Assembly (NCBI GenBank): GCA_035649635.1
Contig: DASRJE010000208.1
Span: 1 to 64,000 of the forward strand
Reading direction: 5' to 3'
DNA from: Vicinamibacterales bacterium
GTDB taxonomy: Bacteria; Acidobacteriota; Vicinamibacteria; Vicinamibacterales; UBA2999
DNA length: 64,000 bases
Part shown: positions 33,501-47,345 of the stretch, piece by piece
How positions within the stretch are numbered: the stretch's first letter is position 1
How the letters are laid out: each line of letters begins with the position of its first letter
Translations under genes and position numbers: made by a program
Notes under the pieces: generated by a model
The model's database searches: none
What the model was told of the DNA's origin: nothing
Seen by the model: only the letters and a program-made list of their open reading frames with translations

Positions 33501-33540
33501 TGGAATGTCGGTAGGTACTTCCTGGCGAATACGGTCACAG

Positions 33541-34356
33541 TCAGCCGCGGCCCGGCGTGCCGTGCCAGCGCGTATGCGTGCGATGAAGCACTCGTGCTGA
33601 CACGGATGTATCTTCGGCGCGGTGCATGAGCGACAGGTTGTCCCACACGAGCACGTCGCCAGGCCGCCATGCGTGCGCGTAAATGAATTCCGGTTTCAGC
33701 GCATGCGCATAGAGACTGGCGAGGAGCTGGACGCCCTTCCTCTTTGGCAGTCCCACAATCGAATCGATGCTGAATTGATTCAGGTAGAGCGACCGCCGCC
33801 CGGTCACATGATGTTCGCGGACAAGTGGGTGGACTGTAGCCCCATCCCGCGGCGCTGTGAGCCCTGACGCTCCGAGCAAGGCGCCGAAACAATGACGGGC
33901 CGCAAGAGGTTCGAGAACGGCCTTTCTCTTGGGAGGCAGCGCCTCGTAGGCCCCCCGCATGTTCGCAAACATCGTGGCGCTGCAGGGTGACGGCACGACG
34001 ACCGCCTTCAGGACGATGACGGGCGACGGGTCTGGCTTGAATGACTGGTCGGTGTGCCAGAAGACAGTCGATCTGGTGACGCCAGGAGCTCCGAGGTCGT
34101 GCCGGACCACCTGAATCCGCCGATCGTCCCGGAGCCTGAACGGCGCATCCCTGGGAAGAACCCGCTCGTCCACCTCCCCAAAGATGCTCGTCAGCGCCAC
34201 TTGATCGTCATACGACAAAATCTGATCCCTGAAAACGAGGAGCAGGCGTTCGTGCAACCCACGCACAAGCTGGCGTCGGCCGGCCGGCGTGATCCGCTCG
34301 AGATCGAAGCCCACCACCTCAGCCCCGAAGGAGGCAAGGAGAGGACGAATCAGCAT
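33541..34356 (-). CDS. TauD/TfdA-family Fe(II)/2-oxoglutarate-dependent dioxygenase
   Basis: Segments WHTDQSF (HxD facial triad) and ...MHRAEDTSV... (distal His). Length is typical of the family. Confidence 0.75.
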   Translation of the reverse strand: MLIRPLLASFGAEVVGFDLERITPAGRRQLVRGLHERLLLVFRDQILSYDDQVALTSIFGEVDERVLPRDAPFRLRDDRRIQVVRHDLGAPGVTRSTVFWHTDQSFKPDPSPVIVLKAVVVPSPCSATMFANMRGAYEALPPKRKAVLEPLAARHCFGALLGASGLTAPRDGATVHPLVREHHVTGRRSLYLNQFSIDSIVGLPKRKGVQLLASLYAHALKPEFIYAHAWRPGDVLVWDNLSLMHRAEDTSVSARVLHRTHTRWHGTPGRG

Positions 34357-34408
34357 CGTTGTATGCTAGCGCTGAGTTCATTCGGTCGCGCACGCGGCGT
34401 CCTCCGAC

Positions 34409-36829
34409 ATGATCGGCATCTCTGTCTCTCACTATCTCGTCACCGACAGGCTCGGTGGGGGCGGCATGGCCGTCGTCTACGAGGCGCAGGATGTGCGTCT
34501 GCCTCGACGAGTCGCTCTCAAGTTCCTGCGCGACAAGCTCGCGAACGACCCGCTGGCGCTTACCCGGTTCAAGCGCGAAGCGGCTGCGCTGTCGCTCCTC
34601 AATCACCCGAACATCTGCACGATTCACGAGGTCGATGCGTTCGAGGGGCAGCCGTTCATCGCGATGGAGAAACTCGAGGGGCGAACGCTTCGCGCGCGCC
34701 TCGCGGAAGGAAAAGTCGAGCCTGCGGAGCTGGTCGACATCGCCGCGCAGATAGCCCAGGCCCTGAAGGCGGCGCACGAGAAGGGCATCGTCCACCGTGA
34801 TATCAAGCCGGGGAACATCTTCATCACGTCGAACGGCGTCAAAGTCCTCGACTTCGGTCTCGCGAAACTGCTCGTCGGGACCGAGAACGAGACCGTCGAG
34901 GACCACACAGTGGACGGACGGCCCGTGGGGACTGTCAACTACATGTCCCCCGAGCGCATCCGGCAGGACAATCTCGATCCCCGCAGTGACCTCTTCTCGC
35001 TCGGCGTGGTGATCTTCGAAATGGCGGCCGGATTCACCCCCTTCGAGGGCGGATCGATCGCTCAAACGGTTGCGAACGTCTTCGACCAGGATCCGCCGGC
35101 GCTCTCCGACGTGGCACCGCGTCAGCCGGACGAGTTGCAATCCATTGTGCACAAGCTGCTGGCTCGAGATCCCGAGGACCGCTATCACACCGCGGGGGCC
35201 TTGTTGCGGGATCTGAAAGCACTGGCGATCCGGATAGATGTCCGGGCGGGAGCCACCAGTCAGACCACGACCAGTGTCCGCGGGAAGACAGACCCGAGGA
35301 GCGGGCGGATATCCGTCGTGGTGATGCCAACGAGAGTGTTGGCTGAGGAAGCCGACTCGTTTCTTGCGGATGCTATTCCGAATGCCATCTCCAAGCATCT
35401 GCTGAAGGTCCCGGGCATCGAGACCAAGCGCCCGCCCACGACCGGCGACCTCGAGCGCGTCGCCGGCGATCTCGATCAGGTGGCCACCGTGTACGGCGCG
35501 ACCGCGTACGTCGTGTCCCTGCTGAACGTCTCGAGTGGGCGATTCAAGCTGTCTGTCCAGTTGGTCGACACCGCGTCTCGCAAACTCAGATGGTGCGACG
35601 AGTACAAGGGTTCGCGTAAGGGATACACCGGTATCGTGAAGGCGGCGGCGGAAGGGATCCGGCGCGCGTTGCAACCGGACACGGACCCGCCGCCGGCGAC
35701 GACGTCGGTGGTGGTCAATCCCGAGGCCGAGCTGCTCCTGCAACAGGGCTTGTACCATTTGAACCTGTTCAGAAATCTCGCCCGGCCGACCGATTTCGAG
35801 CGCGCGGAGACGACGCTTCGCCGCGCCGCCGACCTCGAGCCGGAGCGAGCCGATGCTCCTGCCGCTCTTGCATTGCTGCATACGGCACGGCTCGTGACCG
35901 GCGCCTCTCCATCGGAGGTCGTTCCTGTGTGTGAGACCTGGGTGAAGCGGACGCTGGAAATCGACCGCCGGAACAGCAAAGCGTGGGCGATTCTCTGCGA
36001 GCTCGAGACCATGCGCTCGGAGCTTCGAAAACCGTTCGAGTACGGGCTCAAGGCCGCGGCGTTCGGCGGCCGCGATGCGTTCGCGCACGCGAGGCTCGCC
36101 GGATGTCTCATGTGGCATTCCTACGAGTTGTCGTTGCTCGCCGCCAGTGAGGGCGCGCGCTTCGATCCTCTCGTCCTCGATGCGCCAGTGTTTGCGGCGA
36201 TCAGCCTGAATCAGTTGAGTCGCAGGGACGAGGCACTATCGCTGATCGAAGTCGTGCTCAACATCGAGCCGGACATGCTCCTTGCGCAGTTCATCAAAGG
36301 CCTGATCCTTGCCGATGCCGGCCGCACGGATCCGGCACTGGAGATCATGGCACGGCTCGAACCTTTTGCCGCAAAAGGCCGGCTGCTGCCACAATGGCCG
36401 GCAATCTTCAAGGACGTCGCGGCGTATCACGACGCCGCCACGACCGGGGACACCGAGATGCTCGATCGGACGACACAGAGGCTGGCAGGTTTCGCGAGAG
36501 GTGAGAACCAGTTCCCGCGCTGGGAACTGACGACGTCGGGAATCACACGGCTGCTGGCCAAGCGTTCACCGGCATTGTCGCTCGAACTATTCGCGCACCG
36601 CGCGATGATGGGGATCATCGAGCCGTACGACCATCTCGTGACGCACCCGGATCTCGATCCGCTGCGTGGCGACACGCGCTTCCAACGCCTGCTCCGCACA
36701 TCGCGTCGAAATTTCGAAGAAACCCTGTCTGTCGTGCGAATGGCGCAGAGCCGCGCCGAGGCCCCCGACTACATCGCCCACGCGCTCGACGACATCACAA
36801 AACGCTTTCAGCTCTCCACCAGTTCCTGA
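34409..36829 (+). CDS. Ser/Thr protein kinase with C-terminal TolB-N-like and TPR-like regulatory region
   Basis: Hanks kinase motifs [27 protein letters not shown] and DFGLAK, followed by ...[23 protein letters not shown]... and ~450 aa of helical repeats. Confidence 0.85.
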
Positions 36830-36831
36830 CC

Positions 36832-38262
36832 GTGCCGGCTACGCTCGCGCTCATCGACGGCGTGCACATCGACACGTCCGAATCGGTGACGCGTATCTTG
36901 GGCCCGGGCGTCGACCTCGTGCTGGACCGGCCCTCCGCCCAAGATCTGAAAACACTTCGACGGCTCGTCTTGGGACGAAGCTCGCACAGCGCGCTCACGA
37001 CCCGCACCATCGCTCACGGCGGGCTCGCGGGGTTACGCCGGTTCTACGAGCTGCTTGCCGAGTTGATCACACGGGGCTGGCTGATCGAGCGTGTCGTTGA
37101 CGGCACGGCTGCGATCGTCAGCGCGATCCCGTTGACCGATGACTATTCATGGAACGACGGGTCGAACGGTGATCGGGAAGGCACACTCTCGCGCTTTGCG
37201 TTCATGCGACGCGTCGGTGCGCAGATGGTGCTCGAATCGCCAACCGCGCGTGCACAAATCGTCCTGCATGACTGGCGAGTACTCTTCCTGCTGTGGCAAC
37301 TCTCGCGTTCCCGCCCGCGTTCGCGCGCCGGCACGCCGGGAGCCGGATTGCCTCGATCTGTGATCCGCGCCGTTCGCGGCATGCTCTGGAGCGCCGGGTT
37401 CCTCGTGACCGGAAATGACGGACCCGATGCAGGAGAGCCCCCAAAACTGTTCTTCTGGGAGTTTCATGATCTGCTGTTTCATAGTCGATCGCGCCTTGGC
37501 CGGCATCACAATCCGTATGGGGCAACCTATCCCTTCGAAGGTCGCGTGCCGATGCCGCCGGTGTTCAGACCTCGCGACCGCCGCACGCGCATCCGCTTGT
37601 TCAGGCCCGACGTCACGCGACTTCGTCGCACCGATTGGACGCTCACGCGCGCGCTCGAGGCGAGGCGATCGCAAAGAGACCACAGCGATTCACCGATCAC
37701 ACGACGGGAACTTGGCGAGTTTCTCTTCCGATCAGCGGCCGTCAGATCCGCCCGACCACACGATCGTTATGCCGCCAGTGTGCGCGTTTACCCGAGCGGC
37801 GGCTCGGTGTATTCGCTGGAATTGTATATAGCGGTCCGGCTGTGTGCGGGCCTGGCACCTGGGCTGTATCACTACGTTCCCGAGCGACATGCGCTCTCTC
37901 GAGTGAGCTCGTTGACGGTTCCCGTCCGGTCACTCCTCGACAGCGCCGGTCGCGCGGTCCGCGCCGCGCAACCGCAGTTGCTCATTCTCATCGCTGCTCG
38001 ATTCCCGCGTGCCGCGTGGAAGTACTCGTCGATTTCTTACTCCCTCGTCCTGAAAGAGGTCGGAGCGCTGATGCAGACGATGTATCTCGTGGCCACGGCG
38101 ATGGGACTTGGCGCGTGCGCGCTTGGCGGGGGCGATTCCGATCTATTCGCGAAGGCGGCCGGAATGGACTACTACGCCGAAGGCTCAGTCGGCGAGTTCA
38201 TTCTCGGCCGTCTTCCACGATTCGCCGGAGCGCGCAGGCTTCAGCCTGGGCGGAAATTATGA
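36832..38262 (+). CDS. SagB-type (McbC/ThcOx-like) FMN-dependent dehydrogenase with ~250-aa N-terminal extension
   Basis: GTG start 3 nt after the kinase stop. The C-terminal 200 aa match the SagB-type dehydrogenase pattern: RRSQR..., YPSGGSVYSLELYIAV, GLYHYVP, RAAWKYSSISY, KEVGALMQTMYLVATAMGLGACALGG, EGSVGEFILG. Confidence 0.8.
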   Translation: MPATLALIDGVHIDTSESVTRILGPGVDLVLDRPSAQDLKTLRRLVLGRSSHSALTTRTIAHGGLAGLRRFYELLAELITRGWLIERVVDGTAAIVSAIPLTDDYSWNDGSNGDREGTLSRFAFMRRVGAQMVLESPTARAQIVLHDWRVLFLLWQLSRSRPRSRAGTPGAGLPRSVIRAVRGMLWSAGFLVTGNDGPDAGEPPKLFFWEFHDLLFHSRSRLGRHHNPYGATYPFEGRVPMPPVFRPRDRRTRIRLFRPDVTRLRRTDWTLTRALEARRSQRDHSDSPITRRELGEFLFRSAAVRSARPHDRYAASVRVYPSGGSVYSLELYIAVRLCAGLAPGLYHYVPERHALSRVSSLTVPVRSLLDSAGRAVRAAQPQLLILIAARFPRAAWKYSSISYSLVLKEVGALMQTMYLVATAMGLGACALGGGDSDLFAKAAGMDYYAEGSVGEFILGRLPRFAGARRLQPGRKL

Positions 38263-38302
38263 CCGGGGCTGAAGCCCCGCGCTCCTCTGTACCGAAACCA
38301 CT

Positions 38303-38641
38303 TCAGAAACAGCAGTAGTGTTCTCTCGGTCCACGCATGATGCCCCAGCGCTCTCGCAGGTGGTCCGCCATTTCCTCGTAGGTGAATACGAACTCCGGAT
38401 CGAATTCCCTGGCGATGTCGAGGATCCTGGAATTGTGTGCGGCAATCCTCGCCTGCAAGTCCGCGTTGGTCTCGACTGCGGTGAAGAACCGGGAGACCGG
38501 TGAGTCGTCTGGAACGAACGCCACCAGTCCGACCGGCGCAGTCCTGCGCGCAGCCTTTCTCTTCGCAGTCTTCTTCGCGGCTTTCTTCACTGACCTCTTC
38601 GTGGATTTCTTGGCAGCCTTCTTCGCGGACTTTTTCGCCAT
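38303..38641 (-). CDS. Candidate RiPP precursor: Lys-rich N-terminal tail, Nif11-like leader-type domain, C-terminal ...HYCCF
   Basis: 112 aa. Residues 2-33 are AKKSAKKAAKKSTKRSVKKAAKKTAKRKAARR (AAG-rich, visible in the DNA as cttcttcgc runs). Residues ~48-92 (VSRFFTAVETNADLQARIAAHNSRILDIAREFDPEFVFTYEEMADHL) fit the Nif11 pattern. It ends RGPREHYCCF. Lies 37 bp downstream of the YcaO gene on the same strand. Confidence 0.55.
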   Translation of the reverse strand: MAKKSAKKAAKKSTKRSVKKAAKKTAKRKAARRTAPVGLVAFVPDDSPVSRFFTAVETNADLQARIAAHNSRILDIAREFDPEFVFTYEEMADHLRERWGIMRGPREHYCCF

Positions 38642-38677
38642 GACGCCTCCTCGCGCGAGGGTGATTATCGCCGAGTG

Positions 38678-40846
38678 TCAAATGACGATGTGAAAATTGT
38701 TCATCTGACCTTCAGTCCGGGACGTCCGGCGCCACCCCAGGGCGACCGGTACGTCGTACAGCCGGCCGGGTGCGAATCGAGGCCAGAAATGACGAAGGCC
38801 CGGCACAATCACTCGAACGACCGGTAGACCAACATCCTTTCGCGTCTGATCGAGGACGAGCGTCTCCATGCCACACCGGTGAGCGGCGGTCACACATGCC
38901 ATCACCGCGTCCCGGATGTCCGTGTAGATGGCGTCCTGAAAGTTCCGCCGGTCGCGAACGGCGGTCTGCCTGGTGCGCCTCAGGAACCGACCGAGGCCCG
39001 AACGTCGGTGACTGAAACTTGGTCCCGCGACGCCCAGGTGCACTCCGCTGCGCCATTGATTCAGCTCGGTGATGGCACGGGCGATCGCCGTGCTGGCGTC
39101 GAGATGCGCGCCGAAGCCGAGGAGCAGTTCGCCGGTTCCGCGTTGGAGTCCCTCGGAAACCGCCGCGAAAACGGGTATGCCGAGATCGGTCGTCAGGTCG
39201 TGGACGGTGAGCGAGCGGCCGTTCCTGGCATAATCGCGCACCATTCGCCGAAAGAACGGATTCGAAAAGGTGGCGAGATCGACCGTGGGTCTCGCAAGCT
39301 CGTTGTACCACCAGATCGCGACCGCGTCCCGTTCGACCAGCTCCAGGAAGCCCTGCAGAATGGCCTCTTCCAGGCTGTTGCCGGCCGCGCAGCCGTTCGA
39401 GTTGGCGCGACTGCATCGCTCCGCTTCAGGTGCGCGATAGCCAAAATAGCAGTAGGCCGTCGGCACGTAACGGATTGTGTCGTGGCTGAGCGACCACACA
39501 GGCGTCCAGTCGATTTCCTGCTGGCGGTCGAGAAGTCGGGGAACCCAGCATTGCGGCAATGCACGAGCATTCCAGGCGTCGCGCTCCTCGAACTGCAACT
39601 CGCTGAATGCGGCGCACGCGTTGGGATGAATGGCTTGTCCGCCCAGGGCGTCGTACGACGTCCGTACCCGTGTTTCGATGCCGCGAAAGATTCCTGAATA
39701 CCGTTCGAGCGCTTCGCACAGGGCGCTGGCCCTTGCCTGGGCTCGCCCGATGCCTTTCCCCGAGCTGAGACGACGGCCAGTTGGGAATGGCTCGGTCTCC
39801 GACGCCAGGAACACGTGCTCGGCGGAATACAGCTCCAACCCGCGTGATGCCGTCGTCCTCCGGGTAATTCGCGTGATGATGCCCGTCCACCTGCTGATGT
39901 GATGCCTGTAGCGACTGAACGTCTTGTGGGGCGGCACCGCGCGCCAACCACCGTCAGAGAACGCGGCTCTCGGCCGTCGCGTAAGTACGATTCGCGGATC
40001 CGGTAATGACGTTCCGCCTTCCGAACTGGCTACTGGCGGCGCGCACCGTGGACAGCCTGGCTGCGGGACCACGAGGTGAGCGCTGGATCGCCACAACCGA
40101 GGATCGAGCGCAATCATCGTCCCGATCCGAGTCAACGGTTGCAGTAAGGTGTTGGACGGGGCGCGAAGCTGATTGTGCCGGATGCGAAGTGTCTTCAAAT
40201 CGACGGGATCGCTCGCGAGTCCGCCCGACGATTCCAGCCATGTGTGTGCGGGTCGGTTGGCCCGGATTCGTGCGAGCACACAATCCCAGCATGGTGTCGA
40301 CGGGGGATGCACGAGCGGACCCACCCAGATGACTGTGCCCATGGGCTTGACAGGCAGCCAGGCACGATTGGCGCGTGCGGCTTTTTTCGCGAAATCGGAG
40401 ACGTCGCGACGAAGGTACTCATCGGTCAGGACGACCTCCACGTCGCCGTTGCGACGTGGCGCGAGCCCGAGCTTGTCCAGGACATCGATTGTGGCGGCGT
40501 TCGCCGCGTTACGAGTTCCCTCACGCGTGCGCCGACGGCCATCGACGAGGTGACCGGATCGATGGAGGATCGCGAGCGATGCGAGTACCTCGGCGACGCT
40601 TGCTGAACCTCGCAGTTCCTGAACGATGTCCATCACCGACCGCGTGCCATCGAGCAGGGGCGCCAGGCGAGGGAAGATCGGCCCCTCGAGGGGCCACGAC
40701 TCCACGTCTGACAGCAGCACCGCCCGTGAAGAATCGATGCTGGCCACGGTGAGGTGCGGCCTCAGTTGCGGAAACGACGACTGGCCGCGCTTCACCGCAT
40801 CGCGTCCAGGGTGGTCTTCAACGGCTCGCGGCTTTCGAGTGCCCAC
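38678..40846 (-). CDS. Fused TOMM cyclodehydratase: E1-like/ocin-ThiF-like leader-binding domain plus YcaO domain (C-D fusion)
   Basis: N-terminal ~300 aa carry the PCWDC motif and docking-domain features. The YcaO core reads GKGIGRAQARASALCEALERYSG...SNGCAAGNSLEEAILQGFLELVERDA. 722 aa. Confidence 0.85.
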   Translation of the reverse strand: MGTRKPRAVEDHPGRDAVKRGQSSFPQLRPHLTVASIDSSRAVLLSDVESWPLEGPIFPRLAPLLDGTRSVMDIVQELRGSASVAEVLASLAILHRSGHLVDGRRRTREGTRNAANAATIDVLDKLGLAPRRNGDVEVVLTDEYLRRDVSDFAKKAARANRAWLPVKPMGTVIWVGPLVHPPSTPCWDCVLARIRANRPAHTWLESSGGLASDPVDLKTLRIRHNQLRAPSNTLLQPLTRIGTMIALDPRLWRSSAHLVVPQPGCPRCAPPVASSEGGTSLPDPRIVLTRRPRAAFSDGGWRAVPPHKTFSRYRHHISRWTGIITRITRRTTASRGLELYSAEHVFLASETEPFPTGRRLSSGKGIGRAQARASALCEALERYSGIFRGIETRVRTSYDALGGQAIHPNACAAFSELQFEERDAWNARALPQCWVPRLLDRQQEIDWTPVWSLSHDTIRYVPTAYCYFGYRAPEAERCSRANSNGCAAGNSLEEAILQGFLELVERDAVAIWWYNELARPTVDLATFSNPFFRRMVRDYARNGRSLTVHDLTTDLGIPVFAAVSEGLQRGTGELLLGFGAHLDASTAIARAITELNQWRSGVHLGVAGPSFSHRRSGLGRFLRRTRQTAVRDRRNFQDAIYTDIRDAVMACVTAAHRCGMETLVLDQTRKDVGLPVVRVIVPGLRHFWPRFAPGRLYDVPVALGWRRTSRTEGQMNNFHIVI

Positions 40847-40910
40847 TCGGATCCTTGGTGTCTTCGTTGAACCTGTTCCGCACGGCGAGGAGATCGCAGC
40901 AACGGCTCTC

Positions 40911-41112
40911 CTCAGTGTCAGGCAGTGAATCGTGAACGACGCGATTGTCCGCTAAACGGTGTCAGGCAGTGAATCGTGAAGGCGCGATTGTCCGCTAAAC
41001 GGTGTCAGGCAGTGAATCGTGAACGTGAACCGTGAACAGGCAGGGCAACGGCTCTCCTCGACGGCTCTCTTCGGTGTCAGGCAGTGAATCGTGAAAGGTG
41101 AATCGTGAACGT
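40911..41112 (+). repeat. Tandem array (4 full plus partial copies) of a ~23-bp element GTGTCAGGCAGTGAATCGTGAAC with 20-21-bp near-identical spacers, 65-265 bp upstream of the YcaO gene start
   Basis: Copies at 40915-40937, 40959-40980, 41002-41024 and 41074-41095, plus GTGAAC partial repeats. Spacers gacgcgattgtccgctaaacg and ggcgcgattgtccgctaaacg. Confidence 0.8.
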
Positions 41113-41610
41113 TATTGCGGCCAGGACCCCGGTCGGCCGTGACAACCAAATCCCAACCCGCTGGAGACGTCCGGCCTGGGCCCCGGCTCACTTCTTACTG
41201 ACGGTAGAGGGCGCCACCGCCAGAAATATCGCGATGTCAGCGGCTGTAGCTACCGAAGGCTGCACGACGACATGAGCTCGCGTCGCAAGCGCAGCGCCGC
41301 GCCGCCAGCTGTACACTTTCGCCCTCGGCTAGCAGGGTGCCGTCGATGACGTGGAACGTGAAGCGCGTGAGTCGGACGCGGCGTAACGACTCCGAGATCC
41401 ACGACGCCCAAGACGCTGGGCGTCAATTCCTTGGGAAACACACACGTTGACCTCGTCCTGGTGACCTCGACGTCAGGCAGAGTTCGGCGATCTTCTCCAC
41501 ACTCTTGGAATTGTGGCCGCCCGGCATGCCTCAGACTATCTCGCGGAGCCTCGGCAGGTTCAGGTCAAGGCGGTGTGGTTCATCCTTGGCAAGGATGTCG
41601 ATTGATTCAG

Positions 41611-41635
41611 CGTTCACGATTCACTGCCTGACACC
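41611..41635 (-). repeat. Dispersed copy of the same element in inverted orientation (CGTTCACGATTCACTGCCTGACACC) downstream of the PQQ dehydrogenase
   Basis: 25/25 identity to the reverse complement of the array unit. Confidence 0.7.
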
Positions 41636-41710
41636 AAACCGTCAGGATCAGTCGGATGGCTGCCGCCACGACAGCCCAGGATCCGCAGTCCGACTGCGGT
41701 GGCGTCCCTT

Positions 41711-43831
41711 CTATTCGACGATGATCTGAGCATACGCCCAGGGATGCTCTTTGCAGGTGTAGACGTAGGTGCCCGGTCGATCGAATTTCACGCCGGCGAC
41801 ACCGGCGGGATCGATCGGACCCGTGGACCATGAACCGTCGTCGGCCTCGGCCGAGTGGATCATGGTGCCGTTGTTGCGCCATGTGACGGTCGTGCCCACC
41901 GCAATCTTTGCGCGGTACGGATTGAACTGGTACTCGTCGGTCATGAAACGCGCGCCGGTGAAGGCGTTGTCCCGTTGCAGGGCCGCGGTCTCAATCTGCG
42001 TCGTTTCGGTAACCATGCCGGTGAAGAGCTCCGGCTCGCGCGGCGCCGGCGGCCCCGGTCGTGGTGCCATCGTGCCCCCGAGCTTGAATGCCCAGACATT
42101 CGTGCTGGTCACGAGCGAGACGAACTGCTCGCCGTCGAGTTCGAACGACGCCGCTGGTCCTCCAGCGGGAGCGCCGGTCTGGAACTGCCACACGATCTCG
42201 CCAGTCCTGGCATCGTGCGCGCTGAAGTGTCCGTCCGGCGCAGCGTGAAACAGCAGCCCCCCGGCCGTGGTCAGTACACCGCTCGGGCGGCCGGCACCTG
42301 ACGGGAACTCGCGGCGCCAGACGATCTTGTGCGTCTCGCCATCGATTGCCGCCATCACGAACGTCTCGAACCGATCGATCCCGGGCACGCGATTGCTGAA
42401 GGCGGTGCTGAAGAAGTACCCATCTTCGGCTCGGCGGAGCCAGCGCAGCGAACGTTCCCCGACGGCGTAGAAGTACCCGGTCTGCTGGCTGTAGGACATC
42501 GGCGCGACGCGCATCCCGTAATACGGCATCAGCACGTTCGGCTTGTCGATCGACACCGCCTGGTAGTAGCAGCCAACCTCGAAGCCTTTCGGCATGGTCT
42601 GCGTCTTCCGCCACCAATCGCAGTCGGGAAGGACGCCTTCGGCACCGGCAGGGAAGGGCTGCGTTGCGGCGGTTTTCTGAAAGCGGTCCTGCGGGACCTT
42701 GCGCTCCTCGATCTTCATCAAGGGTTTGCCAGTGACTCGATCGAACGTGAACACGTAGCCATCGGGCCGAATGGCACCGATCGCCTTCACCGTCCTGCCG
42801 CCCACCTGTGCGTCGTACAACACGGGTGAGATAGACATGTCGGCTTCCCAGATATCGTGGCGGATCGTCTGGTAGTGCCACTTCAGTTTGCCCGTCTTCA
42901 TGTCGAGGGCAACGATCGAGCAGATGAAGAGGTTGGTGCCCTCGCGATGCTCACCGGAGAGCTGAGGTACGCCGTTGCCGGTGACGTAGTAGAAGAGGCC
43001 GGACTCTTCGTCCGCGACGCCCGTCAGCCAGAGGGCGCCACCGCCGAACTTCCACTGGGCGGTCTTGGGCCATGTCTCGCTGCCTGGCTCTCCGGGAGCG
43101 GGCACCGCGAACCAGCGCCAGACCTCGCGTCCCGTCTTGCCATCGAGTCCGACGACCTGTCCGCGCCAGCCGTTGTCGGCGCTCAATCCGACCGAGACGA
43201 TACCGCCCGCGTAGACGGGCGCACCGGCGATTCCCTGCCCTTTGTCCCGTGCATCCTCGCCAACGTACTTGTTCCACACGAGCTCGCCGGTGTCGTCGCG
43301 GAGCGCGATGACCCGCGCGTCGGACGTCCCGACAAAGACAAGACCATCGCCGATTGCAACACCTTCGCGGTCGGGTGCGCCCATCCGTGGCGCACCGGCG
43401 GCGGAGCCGCCGCGCGCACCACCGCCGCCGGCCGTGAAGCGCCAGACGGTCTTGCCGGTCCTCGCGTCGATCTTCACGACGTTGGGCGGGGCGGTGAAAT
43501 ACATCATGCCGTTCTTCACGACCGTCATCGATCGCGAATTCGCGGGCGGAGTCAGCCGGTCCGACATCCACACGGCACCGAGCCGCGACACAGTCTGCGT
43601 GTTGATCTGATTCAGGGTGGAGTAGCGATTTCCCAGATCGCCCATGACGGTCGACCATTCGCGGCCGCTGGATGGCGCCGGACCGGATTGGACGGAGACC
43701 GTCACGGGAATCGTAAGAGCCGCGGCGACGGCGGCCGTGAGAATCCACGCCGCGCGTCCGCGCGCACGCCATCGCCCAACTGTTCGTTCGCAGCGACTAG
43801 TGAGTACGTGGCTCAGCCTACGAAATGTCAC
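41711..43831 (-). CDS. PQQ-dependent dehydrogenase (eight-bladed beta-propeller) with C-terminal cupredoxin-like domain
   Basis: Signal-like N-terminus. PQQ propeller repeats throughout. The last ~100 aa (VGTTVTWRNNGTMIHSAEA...GTYVYTCKEHPWAYAQIIVE) show a cupredoxin-like His...Cys-x2-His arrangement. Exact start uncertain. Confidence 0.8.
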   Translation of the reverse strand: MTFRRLSHVLTSRCERTVGRWRARGRAAWILTAAVAAALTIPVTVSVQSGPAPSSGREWSTVMGDLGNRYSTLNQINTQTVSRLGAVWMSDRLTPPANSRSMTVVKNGMMYFTAPPNVVKIDARTGKTVWRFTAGGGGARGGSAAGAPRMGAPDREGVAIGDGLVFVGTSDARVIALRDDTGELVWNKYVGEDARDKGQGIAGAPVYAGGIVSVGLSADNGWRGQVVGLDGKTGREVWRWFAVPAPGEPGSETWPKTAQWKFGGGALWLTGVADEESGLFYYVTGNGVPQLSGEHREGTNLFICSIVALDMKTGKLKWHYQTIRHDIWEADMSISPVLYDAQVGGRTVKAIGAIRPDGYVFTFDRVTGKPLMKIEERKVPQDRFQKTAATQPFPAGAEGVLPDCDWWRKTQTMPKGFEVGCYYQAVSIDKPNVLMPYYGMRVAPMSYSQQTGYFYAVGERSLRWLRRAEDGYFFSTAFSNRVPGIDRFETFVMAAIDGETHKIVWRREFPSGAGRPSGVLTTAGGLLFHAAPDGHFSAHDARTGEIVWQFQTGAPAGGPAASFELDGEQFVSLVTSTNVWAFKLGGTMAPRPGPPAPREPELFTGMVTETTQIETAALQRDNAFTGARFMTDEYQFNPYRAKIAVGTTVTWRNNGTMIHSAEADDGSWSTGPIDPAGVAGVKFDRPGTYVYTCKEHPWAYAQIIVE

Positions 43832-43858
43832 AGATCCAGCCTCGTATTCATGTCGTAG

Positions 43859-43926
43859 CGTTCACGATTCACTGCCTGACACCAGGAGCGCACCAGGAGC
43901 GCATTCACGATTCACTGCCTGACACC
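43859..43926 (-). repeat. Two more inverted-orientation copies of the element, separated by a duplicated CAGGAGCGCA motif, in the PQQ dehydrogenase promoter region
   Basis: 43859-43883 and 43904-43926 read directly. They sit between the stop of the 43936..46080 gene and the start of the PQQ dehydrogenase gene. Confidence 0.7.
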
Positions 43927-43935
43927 AGGACGCGA

Positions 43936-46080
43936 CTACTTCGCGAGCGGGTCGGGACGCATCTGGAACTTCATCACCTTGCTCGTCGTCCCTTTGCCCG
44001 TCTCCATGTGGAACGGCGTTCTGGTCGATATCGTCGTCCAGATGCCGCGACCCTTCCATCCGGCGTTGGGATCATCGATACGGCCGTCCATCCACTTCGT
44101 GTAGAACCCAAGCGGATACGGCACGCGCATGGTGACGAACTTGCCGTCTTTCAACGCCAGCAGTGCTTCAGTCGCGTTCCCGGTGTTGATCGGCACGTTG
44201 CGCCCCAGTCCCAGCGTGTCGAACTGATCGACCCACGTGTAGTAGCTCCCTTCCGTGCTTCCGGAATCGGTGACGTTCTTGAACTGCGGCGCCGGCTCCG
44301 TGTAGAAAGTCCAGCCTTCGGGACAATGCAGACCGCTGGCTTTCGGACCGTTCAGCGCGCCTTTGCACTTGCGGCGATCGAAGCTCGCGAGATGGCCGCT
44401 TGCCATGGCCGCCCAGTACACGCCGTTGCGATCGACGTCACCGCCGCGCGGTGAGAATCCCTTGTCGACGGGAGGTTGATAGATCTCCACGAGCGCCGTG
44501 TCTGGGGGATTCGACCCGGGCGCGAGTCTGATGAGAGCTCCCGGATACCCGAGCTGCGTGCCCCACACCGAACCGTCAGGCGCCGGCGCCACGGCGTAGA
44601 GCGCACCGCCTATGCGCTGATCCTTGCTCGGGTCGAGCGGCTGATCCGGTTCGGTATACGCGTCGCGTTTTCCGTTTCCGTTGGCGTCCCTGATGAGAGC
44701 CGTCCAGCCCTGCGACTTCATCTCGTCCTGCGTCTCGTCGAACATCTTCGTGTTGAGCCATCCGATCACCTGTCCGCCGCCGCTGGTCCACAACGTGTGG
44801 TTCGCGTCCTCGGCGAACATCAGGTGATGGGTTCCGAAGCAGGTGCTGATGTGAGTCAGCTTCTTCGTCGCCGGGTCGTACACGGCTAGGTGGCGGCCCG
44901 CGTTTTCCACGGGGAAGAGTTTCGCAGAGGGGTGGCTCGAGCCGGTCTTGCACTCAGGCGGATTCGCTGCGGGCCGTACCGTCGAGGTCAGCCACACCCG
45001 TCCTTTGTGATCGAGCATCGGGTTGTGGACGTTGTTCTTGCTGGTCCAGATCACCTCGTCCGCCCAGTACGGCGACGGCTCCGGCATCGCGGGATTCGTC
45101 GGGGGAGTCTTGGGGTCTCTTACCGTCAGCGGCACCTGGCTCGCCGTGTTGGTAACCGGATTCAACACCGGCACGTAGTCGGCACTGAGTTCAAGCGCTC
45201 CGTACACCGGCCCATTCGGATTGACGCGCGGATTCCTCCGGTCGGTCGAGACGACGTCGTGCAGGTATGCCTTGGGATCGGCCCAGTCCCACTGCGTGAT
45301 GACGACGTTTCGCTCGATCCCCTGCGGACGTTGCGGCGCCGGTGGAACCTCGCCGGCACGGACCCGATCGGTCCAGTCCGCGAACATCTTCAAGACGCGC
45401 GCGCGGCCGAAATTATTCAGTTGGCCAGTCATCTGCCCGCCAGCCTGCCCGGACTTCACGCGACGATCCCAGGCCGCGACGGTGTTGGGGAATGAACCGA
45501 GCGCCGCCGGGATTTCCCTCGTGCCCTTGGTGCCGAGCGCATGACACGCAGTGCAGCCTCCTGATTTCACGCTGCGGATCCAATCGCCCTGGCTCTTCAT
45601 GTTCGGCGAGATCCCGTTGCCGCTGTCGCCAGTGCCCGGGAACTCGCTCTTGGCCGGCATCTCCATCAACGCCAGCCAGTGTGCGGCCGGATAGTAATGT
45701 GCCGCCTCCGCCGGAGAACTCGCTTTCACGGCACGAAGGGCAAGGCTCTTGCCCGGAGTTGCCTGAACCTTCGGGGAGTCGACCAGCCCGTATCCGCGCA
45801 CCCAGACGCGGTAACTGGCCTTGGGTAGATCGGGCACCAGATAACGTCCGCGATCGTCGGTGACGACAATCCGCGCGAACGGTGTGGGCAGGTCGGTCGT
45901 TTCGGCAACGACCCAGACACCGGCCTCGGGCCCGGACGGCCCGGTTACCGTTCCTGCCAGGTCGTCGTTGTCGATCGCGATCGCGTCGTTCGATGTTTGC
46001 GCGGCACGGGTACCACTCACGATTCCCGCCCAGACCATGAGTCCGATAATGATTCCGAGGGTCAGTGGTTTTTTCGCCAT
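43936..46080 (-). CDS. Secreted protein with N-terminal carboxypeptidase-regulatory-like domain and a CxxCH heme-binding motif
   Basis: Start MAKKPLTLGIIIGLMVWAGIVSG (signal). CarbopepD_reg-like segment VVAETTDLPTPFARIVVTDDRGRYLVPDLPKASYRVWVRGYG. Single heme motif GGCTACHALG. Confidence 0.65.
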   Translation of the reverse strand: MAKKPLTLGIIIGLMVWAGIVSGTRAAQTSNDAIAIDNDDLAGTVTGPSGPEAGVWVVAETTDLPTPFARIVVTDDRGRYLVPDLPKASYRVWVRGYGLVDSPKVQATPGKSLALRAVKASSPAEAAHYYPAAHWLALMEMPAKSEFPGTGDSGNGISPNMKSQGDWIRSVKSGGCTACHALGTKGTREIPAALGSFPNTVAAWDRRVKSGQAGGQMTGQLNNFGRARVLKMFADWTDRVRAGEVPPAPQRPQGIERNVVITQWDWADPKAYLHDVVSTDRRNPRVNPNGPVYGALELSADYVPVLNPVTNTASQVPLTVRDPKTPPTNPAMPEPSPYWADEVIWTSKNNVHNPMLDHKGRVWLTSTVRPAANPPECKTGSSHPSAKLFPVENAGRHLAVYDPATKKLTHISTCFGTHHLMFAEDANHTLWTSGGGQVIGWLNTKMFDETQDEMKSQGWTALIRDANGNGKRDAYTEPDQPLDPSKDQRIGGALYAVAPAPDGSVWGTQLGYPGALIRLAPGSNPPDTALVEIYQPPVDKGFSPRGGDVDRNGVYWAAMASGHLASFDRRKCKGALNGPKASGLHCPEGWTFYTEPAPQFKNVTDSGSTEGSYYTWVDQFDTLGLGRNVPINTGNATEALLALKDGKFVTMRVPYPLGFYTKWMDGRIDDPNAGWKGRGIWTTISTRTPFHMETGKGTTSKVMKFQMRPDPLAK

Positions 46081-46336
46081 GATGCTCTCGCCTTTCGTGC
46101 GGCTGTCCACTAATCCGCGAGCCAGATGGAGTTGGAGGTTGCGGCGTTAATGCGCTCAGCGCCGCCTGAGGATATCGCAGGTGGCTACGGCAGCCAACTC
46201 ATCGTGTGGGGGCTCACCAGCCTGTTGACTGCGTAATTCTCACGGTCTCAGACTACGGTTCGCCTTCAGCAGGGGCGGGTGTAGCCGCAAGAGCAAGGAA
46301 GAAGAAGCGGAGGCGAAGGACGACGATCGACCGTGA

Positions 46337-46708
46337 TTATTTGGGCTTCGCCGGCACGGCCCTGTACACCGTGTTGACCGTGCCTCCCGGGAACCATGCC
46401 GCCGCGCCCTCGGGAATTGACGACGTGTAGGTGAGCGTCCAGGTCGAGCCCTCAGTTACCGTCTCGGCGAATGTGGGCCCTGAGCGGCCCGAACCAAGAC
46501 AGGCGTCGCACGGACCACCGGCGTTGAAGGCGAACTGCACGAAAATTGCCGGACCGCTGGCCGGCGTCACCGTTGCGATTCGCGTCTTCGGATCGACTTT
46601 GCTGATCACGCCAGTGATCGTCTTTTCGTCGCCGGCGGCTCGGGCGAGCACAGCGACAAGGAGCAGACCAACGACCACGCCCGCTGCAACGGTCTTGTTC
46701 GTTTTCAT
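46337..46708 (-). CDS. Small secreted hypothetical protein
   Basis: MKTNKTVAAGVVVGLLLVAVLARAAG is a signal peptide. No recognisable domain. Confidence 0.45.
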   Translation of the reverse strand: MKTNKTVAAGVVVGLLLVAVLARAAGDEKTITGVISKVDPKTRIATVTPASGPAIFVQFAFNAGGPCDACLGSGRSGPTFAETVTEGSTWTLTYTSSIPEGAAAWFPGGTVNTVYRAVPAKPK

Positions 46709-46844
46709 CACCCTGCTCCCGTGTTGACGAGGTCCCGGCACGGTGCTAGCCTCGAACGCCCCTTGCTGATTCGACGAGGATTATAGAGAAATGTCGAGAA
46801 TTAGGCGACGACGCGTTGGATGGTCGCGCTGTCGTCGTGGAGCG

Positions 46845-47345
46845 ATGATCCTCCAGTTCGCCGTGGTCGCGGCGGGCGCTTTCCCCCGTGCCGCGTGGGC
46901 GGAGTGTTCCCTGGAGAACGTCGCCAGTGCCCAGGAGATCGCGGCCGGCTGGACCATCCACGAAGATCGCCGTATCGTCAAACAGGTGGACAGCGCTCCC
47001 TACGAACAGGGTGGCCGCGGCAATTGGTTTGTCGACCGCGAAACGACGACGCTCCCCATGTGCAGTGTGTTTGACGACCTTGGAGGCTACAGCCTCCGCT
47101 CGTACATGTTGCAGCCTATCGCCACCAAGACACAGGTCAAGATCTGTCAGGCGACCGCGGCTGGCGGCAGCGAGCCGTTCGTTCCGCCAGATGCGAAGCC
47201 CCGGCCCGCTGACACTGCGCACGAGGTCTATCAGCCGTACAACCGTCCATACGCCGGCTCTTGTCCACCGGCCCGACCCTCTTCCGCCCGGGCTACCAGA
47301 TCGAAGAAAGGACGCAGGCGACGGCTTTTGACTTTTGACCTTTGA
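46845..47345 (+). CDS. Hypothetical secreted protein
   Basis: MILQFAVVAAGAFPRAAWAECS... The start is uncertain (ORF begins at 46791). No domain recognised. Confidence 0.35.
   Translation: MILQFAVVAAGAFPRAAWAECSLENVASAQEIAAGWTIHEDRRIVKQVDSAPYEQGGRGNWFVDRETTTLPMCSVFDDLGGYSLRSYMLQPIATKTQVKICQATAAGGSEPFVPPDAKPRPADTAHEVYQPYNRPYAGSCPPARPSSARATRSKKGRRRRLLTFDL

What the first reader, a model, noticed from the sequence alone, without database searches (positions are those of the whole stretch)
40911..43926. Novel ~25-bp repeat family: tandem array upstream of the YcaO operon plus inverted dispersed copies bracketing the PQQ dehydrogenase gene
GTGTCAGGCAGTGAATCGTGAAC(G) occurs 4+ times in tandem with near-identical 20-21-bp spacers at 40915-41110. 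It occurs once inverted at 41611-41635 and twice inverted at 43859-43926. All copies are intergenic. It contains an internal direct repeat GTGAA-tc-GTGAAC, which looks like a transcription-factor site. It does not look like CRISPR: the two spacers differ at only one base and no cas gene is present. The array begins 65 bp upstream of the start of the RiPP cyclodehydratase operon. The inverted copies lie immediately 3' and 5' of the PQQ dehydrogenase gene. The element could be a REP/MITE-like mobile repeat or a shared regulatory array linking the two loci. In its sense orientation every copy translates to FTIHCLTP, which is Cys/Thr-containing and cyanobactin-core-like, but the 43-bp unit length breaks the frame between copies.
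Basis: seen in the sequence. Interest (0 to 1): 0.6.

Follow-up and report, generated by a model that had tools for sequence, protein, structure and literature searches.

The report
Transposase-linked dispersed repeat, not a regulator
The 23-base repeat is real, but it is one local cluster of a repeat family scattered between genes in many soil Acidobacteria genomes and tied to a REP-type tyrosine transposase, and the "array upstream of YcaO" is the leftover flank of a decayed copy of that transposase gene.

Summary
GGTGTCAGGCAGTGAATCGTGAA occurs 7 times in the window (4 on +, 3 on −; 0 expected by chance).

The regulatory and core-peptide readings do not hold:
- The same 23-mer, with sharp ends and unconserved flanks, occurs at least 187 times in 110 stretches from 20 Acidobacteriota/Vicinamibacterales MAGs.
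- About 97% of copies lie outside genes, as solo copies, same-orientation groups and convergent inverted doublets (47 '+−', 0 '−+').
- None of the 110 stretches carries a YcaO.

In six loci the repeats bracket a ~290-aa HUH/Y1 transposase with a C-terminal HTH tail. It passes the NCBIfam REP-associated tyrosine transposase model, and its best structural match is E. coli TnpA_REP (4ER8). More distant homologues carry related but distinct repeats, so repeat and enzyme co-vary. This matches the 'TIRtron/TIRYT' class of Di Nocera 2013 (Quentin 2018 subclass 2.1).

In the window, the array abuts an ~85-bp remnant of the transposase gene's 3′ end. The 'gap' before YcaO is a frameshifted fragment of another gene, so the locus is a deletion scar.

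A 99.5%-identical assembly has one 43-bp unit fewer. A 71%-identical YcaO orthologue has no repeat. The likely RiPP precursor is a conserved small ORF downstream of YcaO.

Verdict: a new member of a known, little-studied kind.

The parts
40792..40912 (-). 3' fragment (about 40 codons, one frameshift, stop TGA at 40794-40792) of a ~400-aa gene of unknown function ('X'). It is truncated exactly where the repeat array begins, and it fills the 'gap' between the array and the YcaO ORF.
   Evidence: About 84% nt identity to L086 62-180 and L053 5681-5800, ending at the first repeat. Translations match L086 ...CRDLLAAWNRFKEDNKEPEWALESREQLKSILDAMR* in two frames.
40914..40936 (+). Repeat copy 1 (AGTGTCAGGCAGTGAATCGTGAA, 1 mismatch), outermost copy of the array
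40958..40980 (+). Repeat copy 2 (exact). Together with its spacer it forms the 43/44-bp tandem unit.
   Evidence: One such 43-bp unit is absent in the 99.5%-identical assembly L113.
41001..41023 (+). Repeat copy 3 (exact), followed at 41024-41039 by extra GTGAAC/GTGAACC heptads (slippage of the inner end)
41073..41095 (+). Repeat copy 4 (exact), followed at 41098-41112 by a half-copy GTGAATCGTGAACGT
41113..41245 (-). Downstream flank plus about 85 bp of the 3' end (about 41160-41245, frameshifted) of a decayed TIRYT/RAYT transposase gene. It encodes ...DIAIFLAVAPSTVSKK, the HTH tail.
   Evidence: tblastn 81% over 16 aa, E = 0.019. blastn: L035 3-66 at 86%, L053 7922-8000 at 81% (the same contig, contiguous), L086 2406-2475 at 78%, L044 at 71% over 244 nt. 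Alignment.
41246..41612 (.). Unassigned about 370 bp inside the bracket. No Pfam match, and no match in any fetched locus beyond about 20 nt next to the repeat.
41613..41635 (-). Repeat copy 5 (exact), inverted. It closes the '+ ... −' bracket around the transposase remnant and lies 76 bp downstream of the PQQ dehydrogenase stop codon.
   Evidence: No copy at the orthologous position in L025.
43861..43883 (-). Repeat copy 6 (exact), in the intergenic region between the CarboxypepD_reg-domain gene (stop 43936) and the PQQ dehydrogenase gene (start 43831)
   Evidence: The relative L025 has only one copy in this intergenic region.
43904..43926 (-). Repeat copy 7 (exact), orthologous to the single copy of L025. 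With copy 6 it forms a 43-bp local tandem duplication (the flank CCAGGAGCGCA is duplicated too).

Best explanation
The 23-25-nt unit GGTGTCAGGCAGTGAATCGTGAA(C/T)(G) is the terminal inverted repeat (TIR) of a 'TIRtron'. A TIRtron is a gene for a RAYT-like HUH/Y1 tyrosine transposase with a C-terminal HTH tail (TIRYT; Quentin subclass 2.1, Bertels group 1), bracketed by these repeats with the GGTG end outermost.

Copies of the TIR have spread through the intergenic space of a Vicinamibacterales lineage of Acidobacteriota. They occur as solo copies, as same-orientation groups and as convergent doublets that fold into long hairpins.

What the window holds:
- The four-copy '+' array, the ~85-bp remnant of the transposase gene's 3' end, and the single '−' copy 517 bp away are the wreck of such a TIRtron. 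Deletions have removed most of the transposase gene and most of the neighbouring gene X.
- The three '−' copies around the PQQ dehydrogenase gene are ordinary dispersed members.
- The array units (repeat plus spacer, 43-44 bp) multiply and are lost by local tandem duplication or slippage.

Inferred, not shown:
- The transposase acts in trans on the repeats by single-strand cleavage and joining, as in the IS200/IS605 and TnpA_REP enzymes. This would spread the repeats and keep them uniform.
- The repeats have no specific role in YcaO or PQQ gene expression. Their proximity to the RiPP cluster is incidental.
For: **Family and distribution**
- The unit has sharp ends and unconserved flanks.
- Only 6 of 214 copies lie deep inside called ORFs, against 64% of random positions. 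Copies are enriched between convergent genes: 37% against a 22% baseline.

**Orientation rule**
- Among close pairs there are 47 '+−' and 0 '−+'. The bracket around the transposase gene follows the same rule in all six loci.
- Doublets show no target-site duplication in 63 of 64 cases, as expected for Y1 transposases.

**The enzyme**
- Pfam Y1_Tnp, E = 7e-12.
- NCBIfam REP_Tyr_transpos equivalog, 81.6 and 82.5 bits against a cut-off of 80.
- HYH and YIALNPVK align with the HUH and catalytic-Tyr motifs of PDB 4ER8.
- The AF2 model (pLDDT about 90 in the core) has 4ER8 as best Foldseek hit, TM 0.75, followed by the IS608 and ISDra2 TnpA structures.
- JGI names family members RayT.

**Co-variation of repeat and enzyme**
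- The 60%-identical homologue in L111 is flanked by arrays of GGGGTCAGGCGATGAATCGTGAAC.
- The 67%-identical homologue in L112 is flanked by arrays of GGTGTCAGACGTTGAATCGTGA.
- L044 and L112 are orthologous loci that carry different repeat variants.

**Turnover and maintenance**
- An orthologous doublet has 46 of 46 arm bases identical while its spacer is about 70% identical.
- Occupancy differs at orthologous sites: L089/L092, L099/L095, window/L025.
- A 99.5%-identical assembly lacks one 43-bp array unit.

**Window anatomy**
- Transposase remnant.
- Gene X fragment.
- Same gene order as the intact L086 and L053/L035 loci.

**Literature**
- TIRtrons/TIRYTs have single, dimeric and grouped TIR families, a GGGGWSAS motif (GGTGTCAG matches 7 of 8 positions; L111's GGGGTCAG matches 8 of 8), and their sharpest group in Acidobacteria (PMC3733652).
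- Subclass 2.1 motifs and HTH tail (PMC6006769).
Against: - No experiment shows that a TIRYT binds, cuts or moves these repeats. Only two papers in the library mention TIRYTs, and both are computational.
- The unit does not fold on its own, unlike the REP hairpins that TnpA_REP recognises. The recognition mode is therefore unknown.
- Doublet spacers are nearly all unique. This does not fit simple copy-and-paste of a whole doublet, as proposed for REPINs.
- About 370 bp of the window's bracket (41246-41612) could not be assigned.
- Loci were ascertained by an exact 20-mer, which inflates apparent conservation.
- My gene calls are a crude codon-usage model.
- The NCBIfam score is only just above its cut-off.
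- The 43-bp difference from L113 could be an assembly collapse.
- An incidental effect of the array on YcaO transcription cannot be excluded.
Confidence: 0.82

Rival explanations
1. The repeats exist mainly because the host selects them for a function of their own, and the transposase link is secondary or historical. Candidate functions are hairpin terminators or mRNA 3'-end stabilisers, binding sites for a nucleoid protein, and a DNA-uptake-type signal.
For: - Convergent doublets fold at −26 to −40 kcal/mol.
- 17 of 64 doublets enclose a further unique 5-10-bp stem.
- Copies are enriched between convergent genes.
- The arms are conserved far better than the spacer at an orthologous site.
- The sequence is identical across 20 species-level MAGs.
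Against: - The repeat variant changes together with the transposase lineage, even at an orthologous locus.
- Every intact or decayed transposase gene of this clade that I found is bracketed by the repeats in the same orientation as the doublets.
- Outer flanks carry no T-run or other signal; information content is at most 0.11 bit per position.
- Solo and tandem copies, including all seven in the window, cannot form the hairpin locally.
- Orientation relative to transcription is weakly biased at most, 18:10.
Confidence: 0.1
2. The array is a set of transcription-factor binding sites (GTGAA-N2-GTGAA direct repeats) that co-regulates the YcaO RiPP operon and the PQQ dehydrogenase gene.
For: - The array lies upstream of the YcaO ORF on the coding side.
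- The unit contains a direct repeat.
- The transposase has an HTH tail that could bind double-stranded repeats.
Against: - No YcaO occurs in 110 repeat-bearing stretches.
- The 71%-identical YcaO orthologue has no copy, and the P0129 orthologue has only 62 bp upstream.
- The related PQQ locus has one copy, not three.
- The array number differs between 99.5%-identical assemblies.
- The array is flanked by two pseudogene fragments.
- There are no sigma-70-like sites in 40600-44100.
- Most family members lie at gene 3' ends.
Confidence: 0.03
3. The copies are core-peptide cassettes (FTIHCLTP) of a RiPP precursor for the YcaO enzyme.
For: The reverse strand of every copy reads FTIHCLTP, which contains Cys and Thr, and the array is next to a YcaO/SagB pair.
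Against: - Unit spacings of 44, 43 and 72 bp break the frame.
- Copies occur in both orientations at hundreds of unrelated intergenic sites, and no locus carries a YcaO.
- A conserved 106-112-aa ORF directly downstream of YcaO has a Nif11-like region and a conserved ...EHYCCF* end in the window and L114, and an ORF of that size occupies the same position on the P0129 contig. It is the better precursor candidate.
Confidence: 0.01
4. The repeats are the ends of a conventional MITE mobilised by a DDE transposase, or a degenerate or orphan CRISPR array.
For: Inverted pairs with GGTG outermost resemble MITE ends. The 23-nt repeats with about 20-nt spacers superficially resemble CRISPR.
Against: - There are no target-site duplications in 63 of 64 doublets, and internal sequences are unique, 0-90 bp long.
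- The gene found between the repeats is a Y1 transposase, not a DDE enzyme.
- The array spacers are near-identical duplicates, and the family is dispersed as solo copies and hairpin doublets, which CRISPR repeats are not.
- There are no PADLOC hits for the neighbouring proteins.
Confidence: 0.02

Closest known systems
TIRtrons / TIRYTs (TIR-associated tyrosine transposases; Di Nocera et al. 2013, PMC3733652), equal to TnpA_REP subclass 2.1 (Quentin et al. 2018, PMC6006769) and RAYT group 1 (Bertels et al. 2017, PMC5581495)
   Same: - A RAYT-like Y1 gene is flanked by inverted repeats that are not REP hairpins.
- The repeats also form a dispersed family of single, dimeric and grouped copies.
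- The outer end fits the GGGGWSAS motif (7 of 8 positions here; 8 of 8 in the L111 variant).
- The protein is long, with an HTH tail and NH[YF]H-like and Y[IV]xLNP motifs.
- Acidobacteria are the best-defined TIRYT group.
   Different: - This Vicinamibacterales family and its 23-mer are not in the papers I could search.
- Copy numbers here are lower bounds of 24-39 per MAG, from a truncated scan. That exceeds the mean of about 12 occurrences reported for 16-mers linked to group 1 RAYTs.
- Quentin et al. found no REP-like sequences near subclass 2.1 genes, whereas here the link is clear and co-varying.
REP elements with RAYT / TnpA_REP (REPtrons; E. coli, Pseudomonas; PDB 4ER8)
   Same: - Short extragenic repeats at high copy number bracket a single HUH/Y1 transposase gene.
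- Repeats are organised in clusters of alternating or same orientation.
- The repeat co-varies with the enzyme.
- The enzyme core is homologous by sequence and fold.
   Different: - The unit is not a palindrome and does not fold alone.
- It has no GTAG or CGTC tetranucleotide tag.
- The enzyme carries an extra HTH tail of about 140 aa.
REPINs (REP doublets forming hairpins; Bertels & Rainey 2011)
   Same: Two inverted units form a long hairpin. The proposed carrier is a RAYT. The population is persistent and largely vertically inherited (orthologous doublet in two species).
   Different: REPIN spacers are conserved because the doublet is copied as a unit. Here the spacers are almost all unique, 0-90 bp long, and often form a stem-loop of their own.
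IS200/IS605 insertion sequences (IS608, ISDra2)
   Same: The HUH/Y1 catalytic core is shared, and there is no target-site duplication.
   Different: - Those elements have asymmetric subterminal hairpins and move as whole elements, often with tnpB.
- Here the ends are symmetric 23-nt inverted repeats.
- The transposase gene sits at conserved chromosomal positions (L007/L012, L086/L053-L035, L044/L112).
- The repeats far outnumber the gene.

Membership tests
TIRtron / TIRYT repeat family (Di Nocera 2013) | A RAYT-like Y1 transposase gene flanked by terminal inverted repeats that are not REP stem-loops | tested here: met
   Six loci have the repeat in a '+ ... gene ... −' bracket, 5-22 bp after the stop and 105-132 bp before the start. 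The unit does not fold alone.
TIRtron / TIRYT repeat family (Di Nocera 2013) | The same TIR also occurs as a dispersed family of single, dimeric and grouped copies | tested here: met
   At least 187 exact copies in 110 stretches. Solo copies, 64 convergent doublets and same-orientation groups are all present.
TIRtron / TIRYT repeat family (Di Nocera 2013) | The TIR carries a GGGGWSAS-type motif (majority type, not obligatory) | tested here: met
   The outer end GGTGTCAG matches 7 of 8 positions. The L111 variant GGGGTCAG matches 8 of 8.
TIRtron / TIRYT repeat family (Di Nocera 2013) | The window's own copies belong to such a locus | tested here: met
   An ~85-bp remnant of the transposase gene's 3' end lies between the '+' array and the '−' copy, with the GGTG ends outermost, in the same gene order as the intact L086 and L053/L035 loci. 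The 5' side of the bracket is unassigned.
RAYT / TnpA_REP subclass 2.1 (Quentin 2018) | HUH motif NH[YF]H/NHVH, Y motif YIELNP/Y[IV]HLNP, Y1 fold | tested here: met
   The motifs are T-HYH and YIALNP. H60, Y61, H62, Y119, N123 and P124 are invariant in 35 homologues. They align to 4ER8. The NCBIfam RAYT equivalog scores above its cut-off. Foldseek's top hit is 4ER8. The first residue of the HUH motif is T rather than N.
RAYT / TnpA_REP subclass 2.1 (Quentin 2018) | Long protein with a C-terminal HTH-like tail (Bac_DnaA_C / HTH_23 / HTH_28) | tested here: met
   The proteins are 287-294 aa, with weak Sigma70_r4_2 and HTH_23 hits at residues 243-288. The model shows helices at 241-286 with pLDDT 73-88.
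RAYT / TnpA_REP subclass 2.1 (Quentin 2018) | The enzyme binds and cleaves its flanking repeats | not testable with these tools
   This needs biochemistry. I found no published data for TIRYTs.
Classical REP (repetitive extragenic palindrome) | Each unit is an imperfect palindrome or stem-loop | tested here: not met
   The ssDNA minimum free energy is −0.2 and 0 kcal/mol for the two strands, no better than shuffles.
Classical REP (repetitive extragenic palindrome) | GTAG (or CGTC) tetranucleotide at one end | tested here: not met
   The unit begins GGTG and ends GTGAA(CG). There is no GTAG or CGTC, and the flanks are unconserved.
Classical REP (repetitive extragenic palindrome) | Extragenic, high copy number, linked to a RAYT | tested here: met
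REPIN | The inverted doublet with a conserved spacer is the replicating unit | tested here: not met
   Doublets exist in a strict '+−' orientation, but 58 of 64 spacers are unique. Only the zero-spacer form recurs (6 times).
MITE of a DDE transposon | TIRs plus target-site duplication plus a conserved internal sequence | tested here: not met
   No duplication in 63 of 64 doublets, and the internal sequences are unique.
CRISPR array | Direct repeats separated by diverse spacers, usually with cas genes | tested here: not met
   The two array spacers are near-identical duplicates, and the family is dispersed, mostly as inverted doublets. A full cas search of the window was not done.

The most novel reading that the evidence does not exclude
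Group 1 / subclass 2.1 RAYTs (TIRYTs) were reported as having no REP-like partners. Here one would sustain a large, long-lived population of repeats by a mode different from REP or REPIN systems:
- The recognised unit is a non-palindromic 23-mer, possibly read as duplex DNA by the HTH tail or as the stem of a doublet hairpin.
- New doublets would arise either by placing two units at the feet of pre-existing unique hairpins such as terminators, or by fold-back copying from a solo unit.

Either route would explain the strict '+−' rule, the unique but palindromic spacers, and the absence of target duplications.
Probability: 0.25. Interest if true: 0.5.

Novelty: new member of a known kind. Interest (0 to 1): 0.3.

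Why it matters
For the window, it removes a false lead. The array is not a regulator or a precursor of the YcaO RiPP cluster, and a better precursor candidate is identified.

More generally, it gives a clean natural data set for TIRYT-type RAYTs, which have been described only computationally:
- at least 20 species-level genomes;
- co-varying repeat variants;
- orthologous occupied and empty sites;
- a strain-level unit gain or loss.

This system could be used to test how an HTH-tailed Y1 transposase recognises non-hairpin repeats. The repeats may also serve as strain-typing markers, and they may be sites of rearrangement in Vicinamibacterales genomes.

Tried and rejected
- **Known RNA family:** an Rfam scan of 38000-46500 at E ≤ 1 found nothing.
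- **Promoter/terminator scan of 40600-44100:** no sigma-70-like sites, and terminator-like sites at chance level.
- **Defence-system models:** no hits for the neighbouring proteins or the transposase.
- **Assigning 41246-41612:** Pfam on ORFs and stop-bridged frames found nothing. Sensitive blastn against all loci gave nothing beyond the repeat itself. Alignment to transposase 5' flanks gave only about 20 nt of doubtful similarity to L086.
- **Target-site motif:** outer flanks carry at most 0.11 bit per position.
- **Target-site duplications:** none.
- **Strand bias relative to transcription:** 18:10, not convincing.
- **First gene call:** a GC3-only gene call was too strict and was replaced by a codon-usage model.
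- **YcaO/SagB as a foreign island bounded by the scar:** their GC3 is only mildly lower (0.70-0.72 against 0.78-0.82), so I make no claim.
- **Missing DNA:** two look-ups returned no DNA because the sample files were too large.

Full report
**1. The observation**

The window holds seven copies of GGTGTCAGGCAGTGAATCGTGAA. Four are on the + strand at 40914-41095. Three are on the − strand at 41613-41635, 43861-43883 and 43904-43926. None is expected by chance.

- The first three + copies form a 43/44-bp tandem repeat whose spacers are near-identical.
- The fourth copy follows after 49 nt.
- Extra GTGAAYC heptads and a half-copy trail copies 3 and 4.

All large genes here are on the − strand:

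| Gene | Coordinates | Evidence |
|---|---|---|
| Fused leader-binding/SagD-type YcaO | 38678-40846 | Pfam YcaO 4e-97; TIGR03604 268 bits |
| PQQ dehydrogenase | 41711-43831 | |
| CarboxypepD_reg-domain protein | 43936-46110 | |
| SagB/ThcOx dehydrogenase (+ strand) | 36832-38262 | |

**2. The repeat is a dispersed family**

They come from 20 MAGs, nearly all labelled Acidobacteriota or Vicinamibacterales. One 3.2-kb contig is binned as Gemmatimonadaceae, possibly mis-binned.

- The 110 stretches (796 kb) hold 187 exact copies.
- The conserved block is 23-25 nt with abrupt ends. Flanks are at background composition.
- Allowing 4 mismatches gives 219 copies, of which 176 are exact 23-mers. Ascertainment by the exact 20-mer inflates this, but the unselected partner in a pair is usually exact too.
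- With a self-trained codon-usage gene call (crude), 6 of 214 copies lie deep inside ORFs, against 64% of random positions.
- Clusters sit between convergent genes more often than baseline: 39 of 105 against 113 of 523.
- None of the 110 stretches encodes a YcaO homologue.

**3. Architecture**

Among pairs closer than 200 bp there are 47 '+−', 8 '++', 6 '−−' and no '−+'. The GGTG end is therefore always outermost.

- A single unit has no secondary structure (−0.2 and 0 kcal/mol). Doublets fold at −26 to −40 kcal/mol.
- In 64 doublets the spacers are 0-90 nt. All are unique except six zero-spacer perfect palindromes.
- 63 of 64 doublets show no direct target duplication.
- The palindrome does not extend outward beyond chance.
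- In 17 of 64 doublets the spacer extends the palindrome inward by 5-10 bp with a sequence of its own, so the repeats bracket different stem-loops.
- Outer flanks show no target motif.

**4. The associated gene**

In six loci the repeats bracket a gene of about 290 aa:

| Locus | State of the gene |
|---|---|
| L007, L012, L086 | intact |
| L035 | cut by the locus edge, but continuous with L053 |
| L044, L093 | frameshifted |

Evidence that the protein is a RAYT:
- It matches Pfam Y1_Tnp (7e-12) and has a weak sigma-70 r4 / HTH_23 tail.
- It passes NCBIfam's REP-associated tyrosine transposase equivalog, narrowly: 81.6 and 82.5 bits against a cut-off of 80.
- Its HYH and YIALNPVK align with the HUH and catalytic-Tyr motifs of E. 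coli TnpA_REP, PDB 4ER8.
- These residues are invariant in 35 homologues.
- An AlphaFold2 model (core pLDDT about 90) has 4ER8 as its best PDB match (TM 0.75), then the IS608 and ISDra2 TnpA structures.
- 507 homologues were found in metagenomes. JGI labels many of them 'REP element-mobilizing transposase RayT'.

In every locus the bracket is repeat(+) ... gene ... repeat(−), the same polarity as the doublets. Three loci have two copies on each side.

**5. Co-variation and turnover**

A 60%-identical homologue (L111) is flanked by two upstream and four downstream copies of GGGGTCAGGCGATGAATCGTGAAC. A 67%-identical one (L112) is flanked by GGTGTCAGACGTTGAATCGTGA.

- The outer GGKGTCAG and the inner TGAATCGTGA are kept.
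- The central tetranucleotide differs: GCAG, GCGA or ACGT.
- L044 (GCAG type) and L112 (ACGT type) are orthologous loci. All flanking copies therefore changed together with the enzyme lineage.

Evidence of turnover:
- At an orthologous doublet in two species (L019/L046), all 46 arm bases are identical, while the spacer is about 70% identical and has indels.
- Occupancy differs at other orthologous sites. L089 has a doublet where L092 has an unrelated 500-bp ORF. L099 has a doublet where L095 has a solo copy.
- The relative L025 has one copy between the CarboxypepD_reg and PQQ genes where the window has two, and none downstream of the PQQ gene.

**6. What the window's array is**

Reading leftward from the PQQ gene:

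| Coordinates | Feature |
|---|---|
| 41613-41635 | repeat (−) |
| 41246-41612 | about 370 bp unassigned |
| about 41160-41245 | about 85 bp homologous to the 3' end of the transposase gene, frameshifted (encodes ...DIAIFLAVAPSTVSKK), followed by its downstream flank |
| 40914-41112 | the four '+' copies plus trailing partial copies, with their inner ends facing the remnant |
| 40792-40912 | the last ~40 codons, frameshifted, of a ~400-aa gene X |

- The homology of the gene X fragment to L086 and L053 stops exactly at the first repeat.
- In the close relative L086, and in L053/L035, the order is X, then a RES-toxin module, then repeat(+), intact transposase gene, repeat(−).
- The window is therefore the same locus after deletions.
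- The '65-bp gap' before YcaO is pseudogene debris, and the longest YcaO ORF start overlaps it in another frame.

**7. Strain and orthologue tests**

- A farmland-metagenome scaffold (L113) is 99.5-99.65% identical over 14 kb and has the same gene order. It lacks exactly one 43-bp unit of the array, giving 3 full copies instead of 4. Assembly collapse cannot be excluded.
- The nearest YcaO orthologue with DNA available (71% identity, L114) has no copy of the repeat anywhere on its 3.5-kb contig.
- Another orthologue (P0129) has only 62 bp upstream of the gene.
- All three clusters keep a 106-112-aa ORF directly after YcaO. Where its sequence was read (the window and L114), it has a Lys-rich N-terminus, a weak Nif11-like region and a conserved ...GP(R/V)EHYCCF* end.
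- That ORF, not the array, is the plausible precursor.

**8. Comparison with what is known**

Di Nocera et al. 2013 (PMC3733652) described RAYT-like genes flanked by terminal inverted repeats rather than REP hairpins.
- They named the units 'TIRtrons' and the proteins 'TIRYTs'.
- The repeats form moderately abundant families of single, dimeric and grouped copies.
- Many share a GGGGWSAS motif.
- The best-defined protein group comes from Acidobacteria.

Quentin et al. 2018 (PMC6006769) equate these with TnpA_REP subclass 2.1.
- The proteins are long, with an HTH tail and NH[YF]H and Y[IV]xLNP motifs.
- They correspond to Bertels' group 1.
- The authors state that they found no REP-like sequences next to them.

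Bertels et al. 2017 report about 12 occurrences for 16-mers linked to group 1 RAYTs.

The present family fits the TIRtron definition on every feature I could test. It fails the definitions of classical REP, REPIN, MITE and CRISPR:

| Class | Why the family fails its definition |
|---|---|
| Classical REP | no self-palindrome, no GTAG |
| REPIN | spacers not conserved |
| MITE | no target duplication, no conserved interior |
| CRISPR | spacers are duplicates; the family is dispersed |

**9. Mechanism**

Shown:
- the association between repeat and transposase gene;
- the polarity rule;
- co-variation of repeat and enzyme;
- extragenic placement;
- turnover at orthologous sites;
- excess conservation of the arms;
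- tandem gain or loss of array units.

Inferred from the IS200/IS605 and TnpA_REP families:
- The Y1 enzyme cleaves and rejoins single-stranded DNA at the repeats, spreading or homogenising them without target duplications.
- The hairpin formed by a doublet, or the HTH tail on duplex DNA, supplies recognition.

Not explained: why the spacers are unique and often self-paired, and the recurrent 40-43-bp spacing of same-orientation copies.

**10. Verdict**

This is a real repeat family, correctly spotted. It is a generic, transposase-linked dispersed element, and the window shows a decayed master locus of it. It is not a regulatory or biosynthetic part of the YcaO or PQQ genes.

Noticed in passing
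window 38303-38641 (− strand): A 112-aa ORF lies directly downstream of YcaO. It has a Lys-rich N-terminus overlapping a 12-bp tandem repeat (38560-38638), a weak Nif11-like region (Pfam E = 0.013) and a C-terminus ...GPREHYCCF*. An ORF of 106-112 aa occupies the same position after two YcaO orthologues; the L114 one was read and ends GPVEHYCCF*, while the one on the P0129 contig is known only by its size. It is probably the thiazole/oxazole (TOMM) precursor of this cluster.
   Followed up: partly
window 1-306: A 21-bp tandem repeat of about 14 copies lies at the window edge. On the − strand it translates as a Thr/Ser/Gly-rich heptad (…GAATTSS…), so it is probably a coding repeat in a gene cut by the window start.
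   Followed up: no
window 36832-40846: The YcaO and SagB/ThcOx genes have lower third-position GC (0.70-0.72) than their neighbours (0.78-0.82), and my codon-usage model did not call them. The cluster is absent from the syntenic relative L025, where a glucose/sorbosone dehydrogenase follows the PQQ gene. This may be a recent acquisition or rearrangement next to the repeat scar.
   Followed up: partly
window 40958/41001 and 43861/43904; loci L011, L012 and others: Same-orientation copies recur at 40-43 bp start-to-start spacing, about four helical turns, with unrelated spacer sequences. This could reflect phasing for a bound protein or only the size of slipped units.
   Followed up: no
L086 1335-2383: A RES-domain toxin ORF (Pfam 3.8e-08), with a likely partner ORF upstream, sits between gene X and the intact transposase locus. 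This module is deleted in the window.
   Followed up: no
L113 (ENA ERZ1823572, GS_farmland_Scaff1615382): A 40.6-kb farmland-metagenome scaffold is 99.5% identical to window 32678-46890. This suggests the organism is a soil Vicinamibacterales-like acidobacterium. The closest species-level MAG is JALDXQ (MCT-CON-06), at 84-88% nt identity.
   Followed up: partly
L034 5232-5294 and L076 2108-2171: Two doublets on different contigs of the same MAG have nearly the same 17-18-nt spacer (tgtctgcggcggtaccc and tgtctgcggcgagtaccc). This hints that some doublets are copied as whole units, as REPINs are.
   Followed up: no
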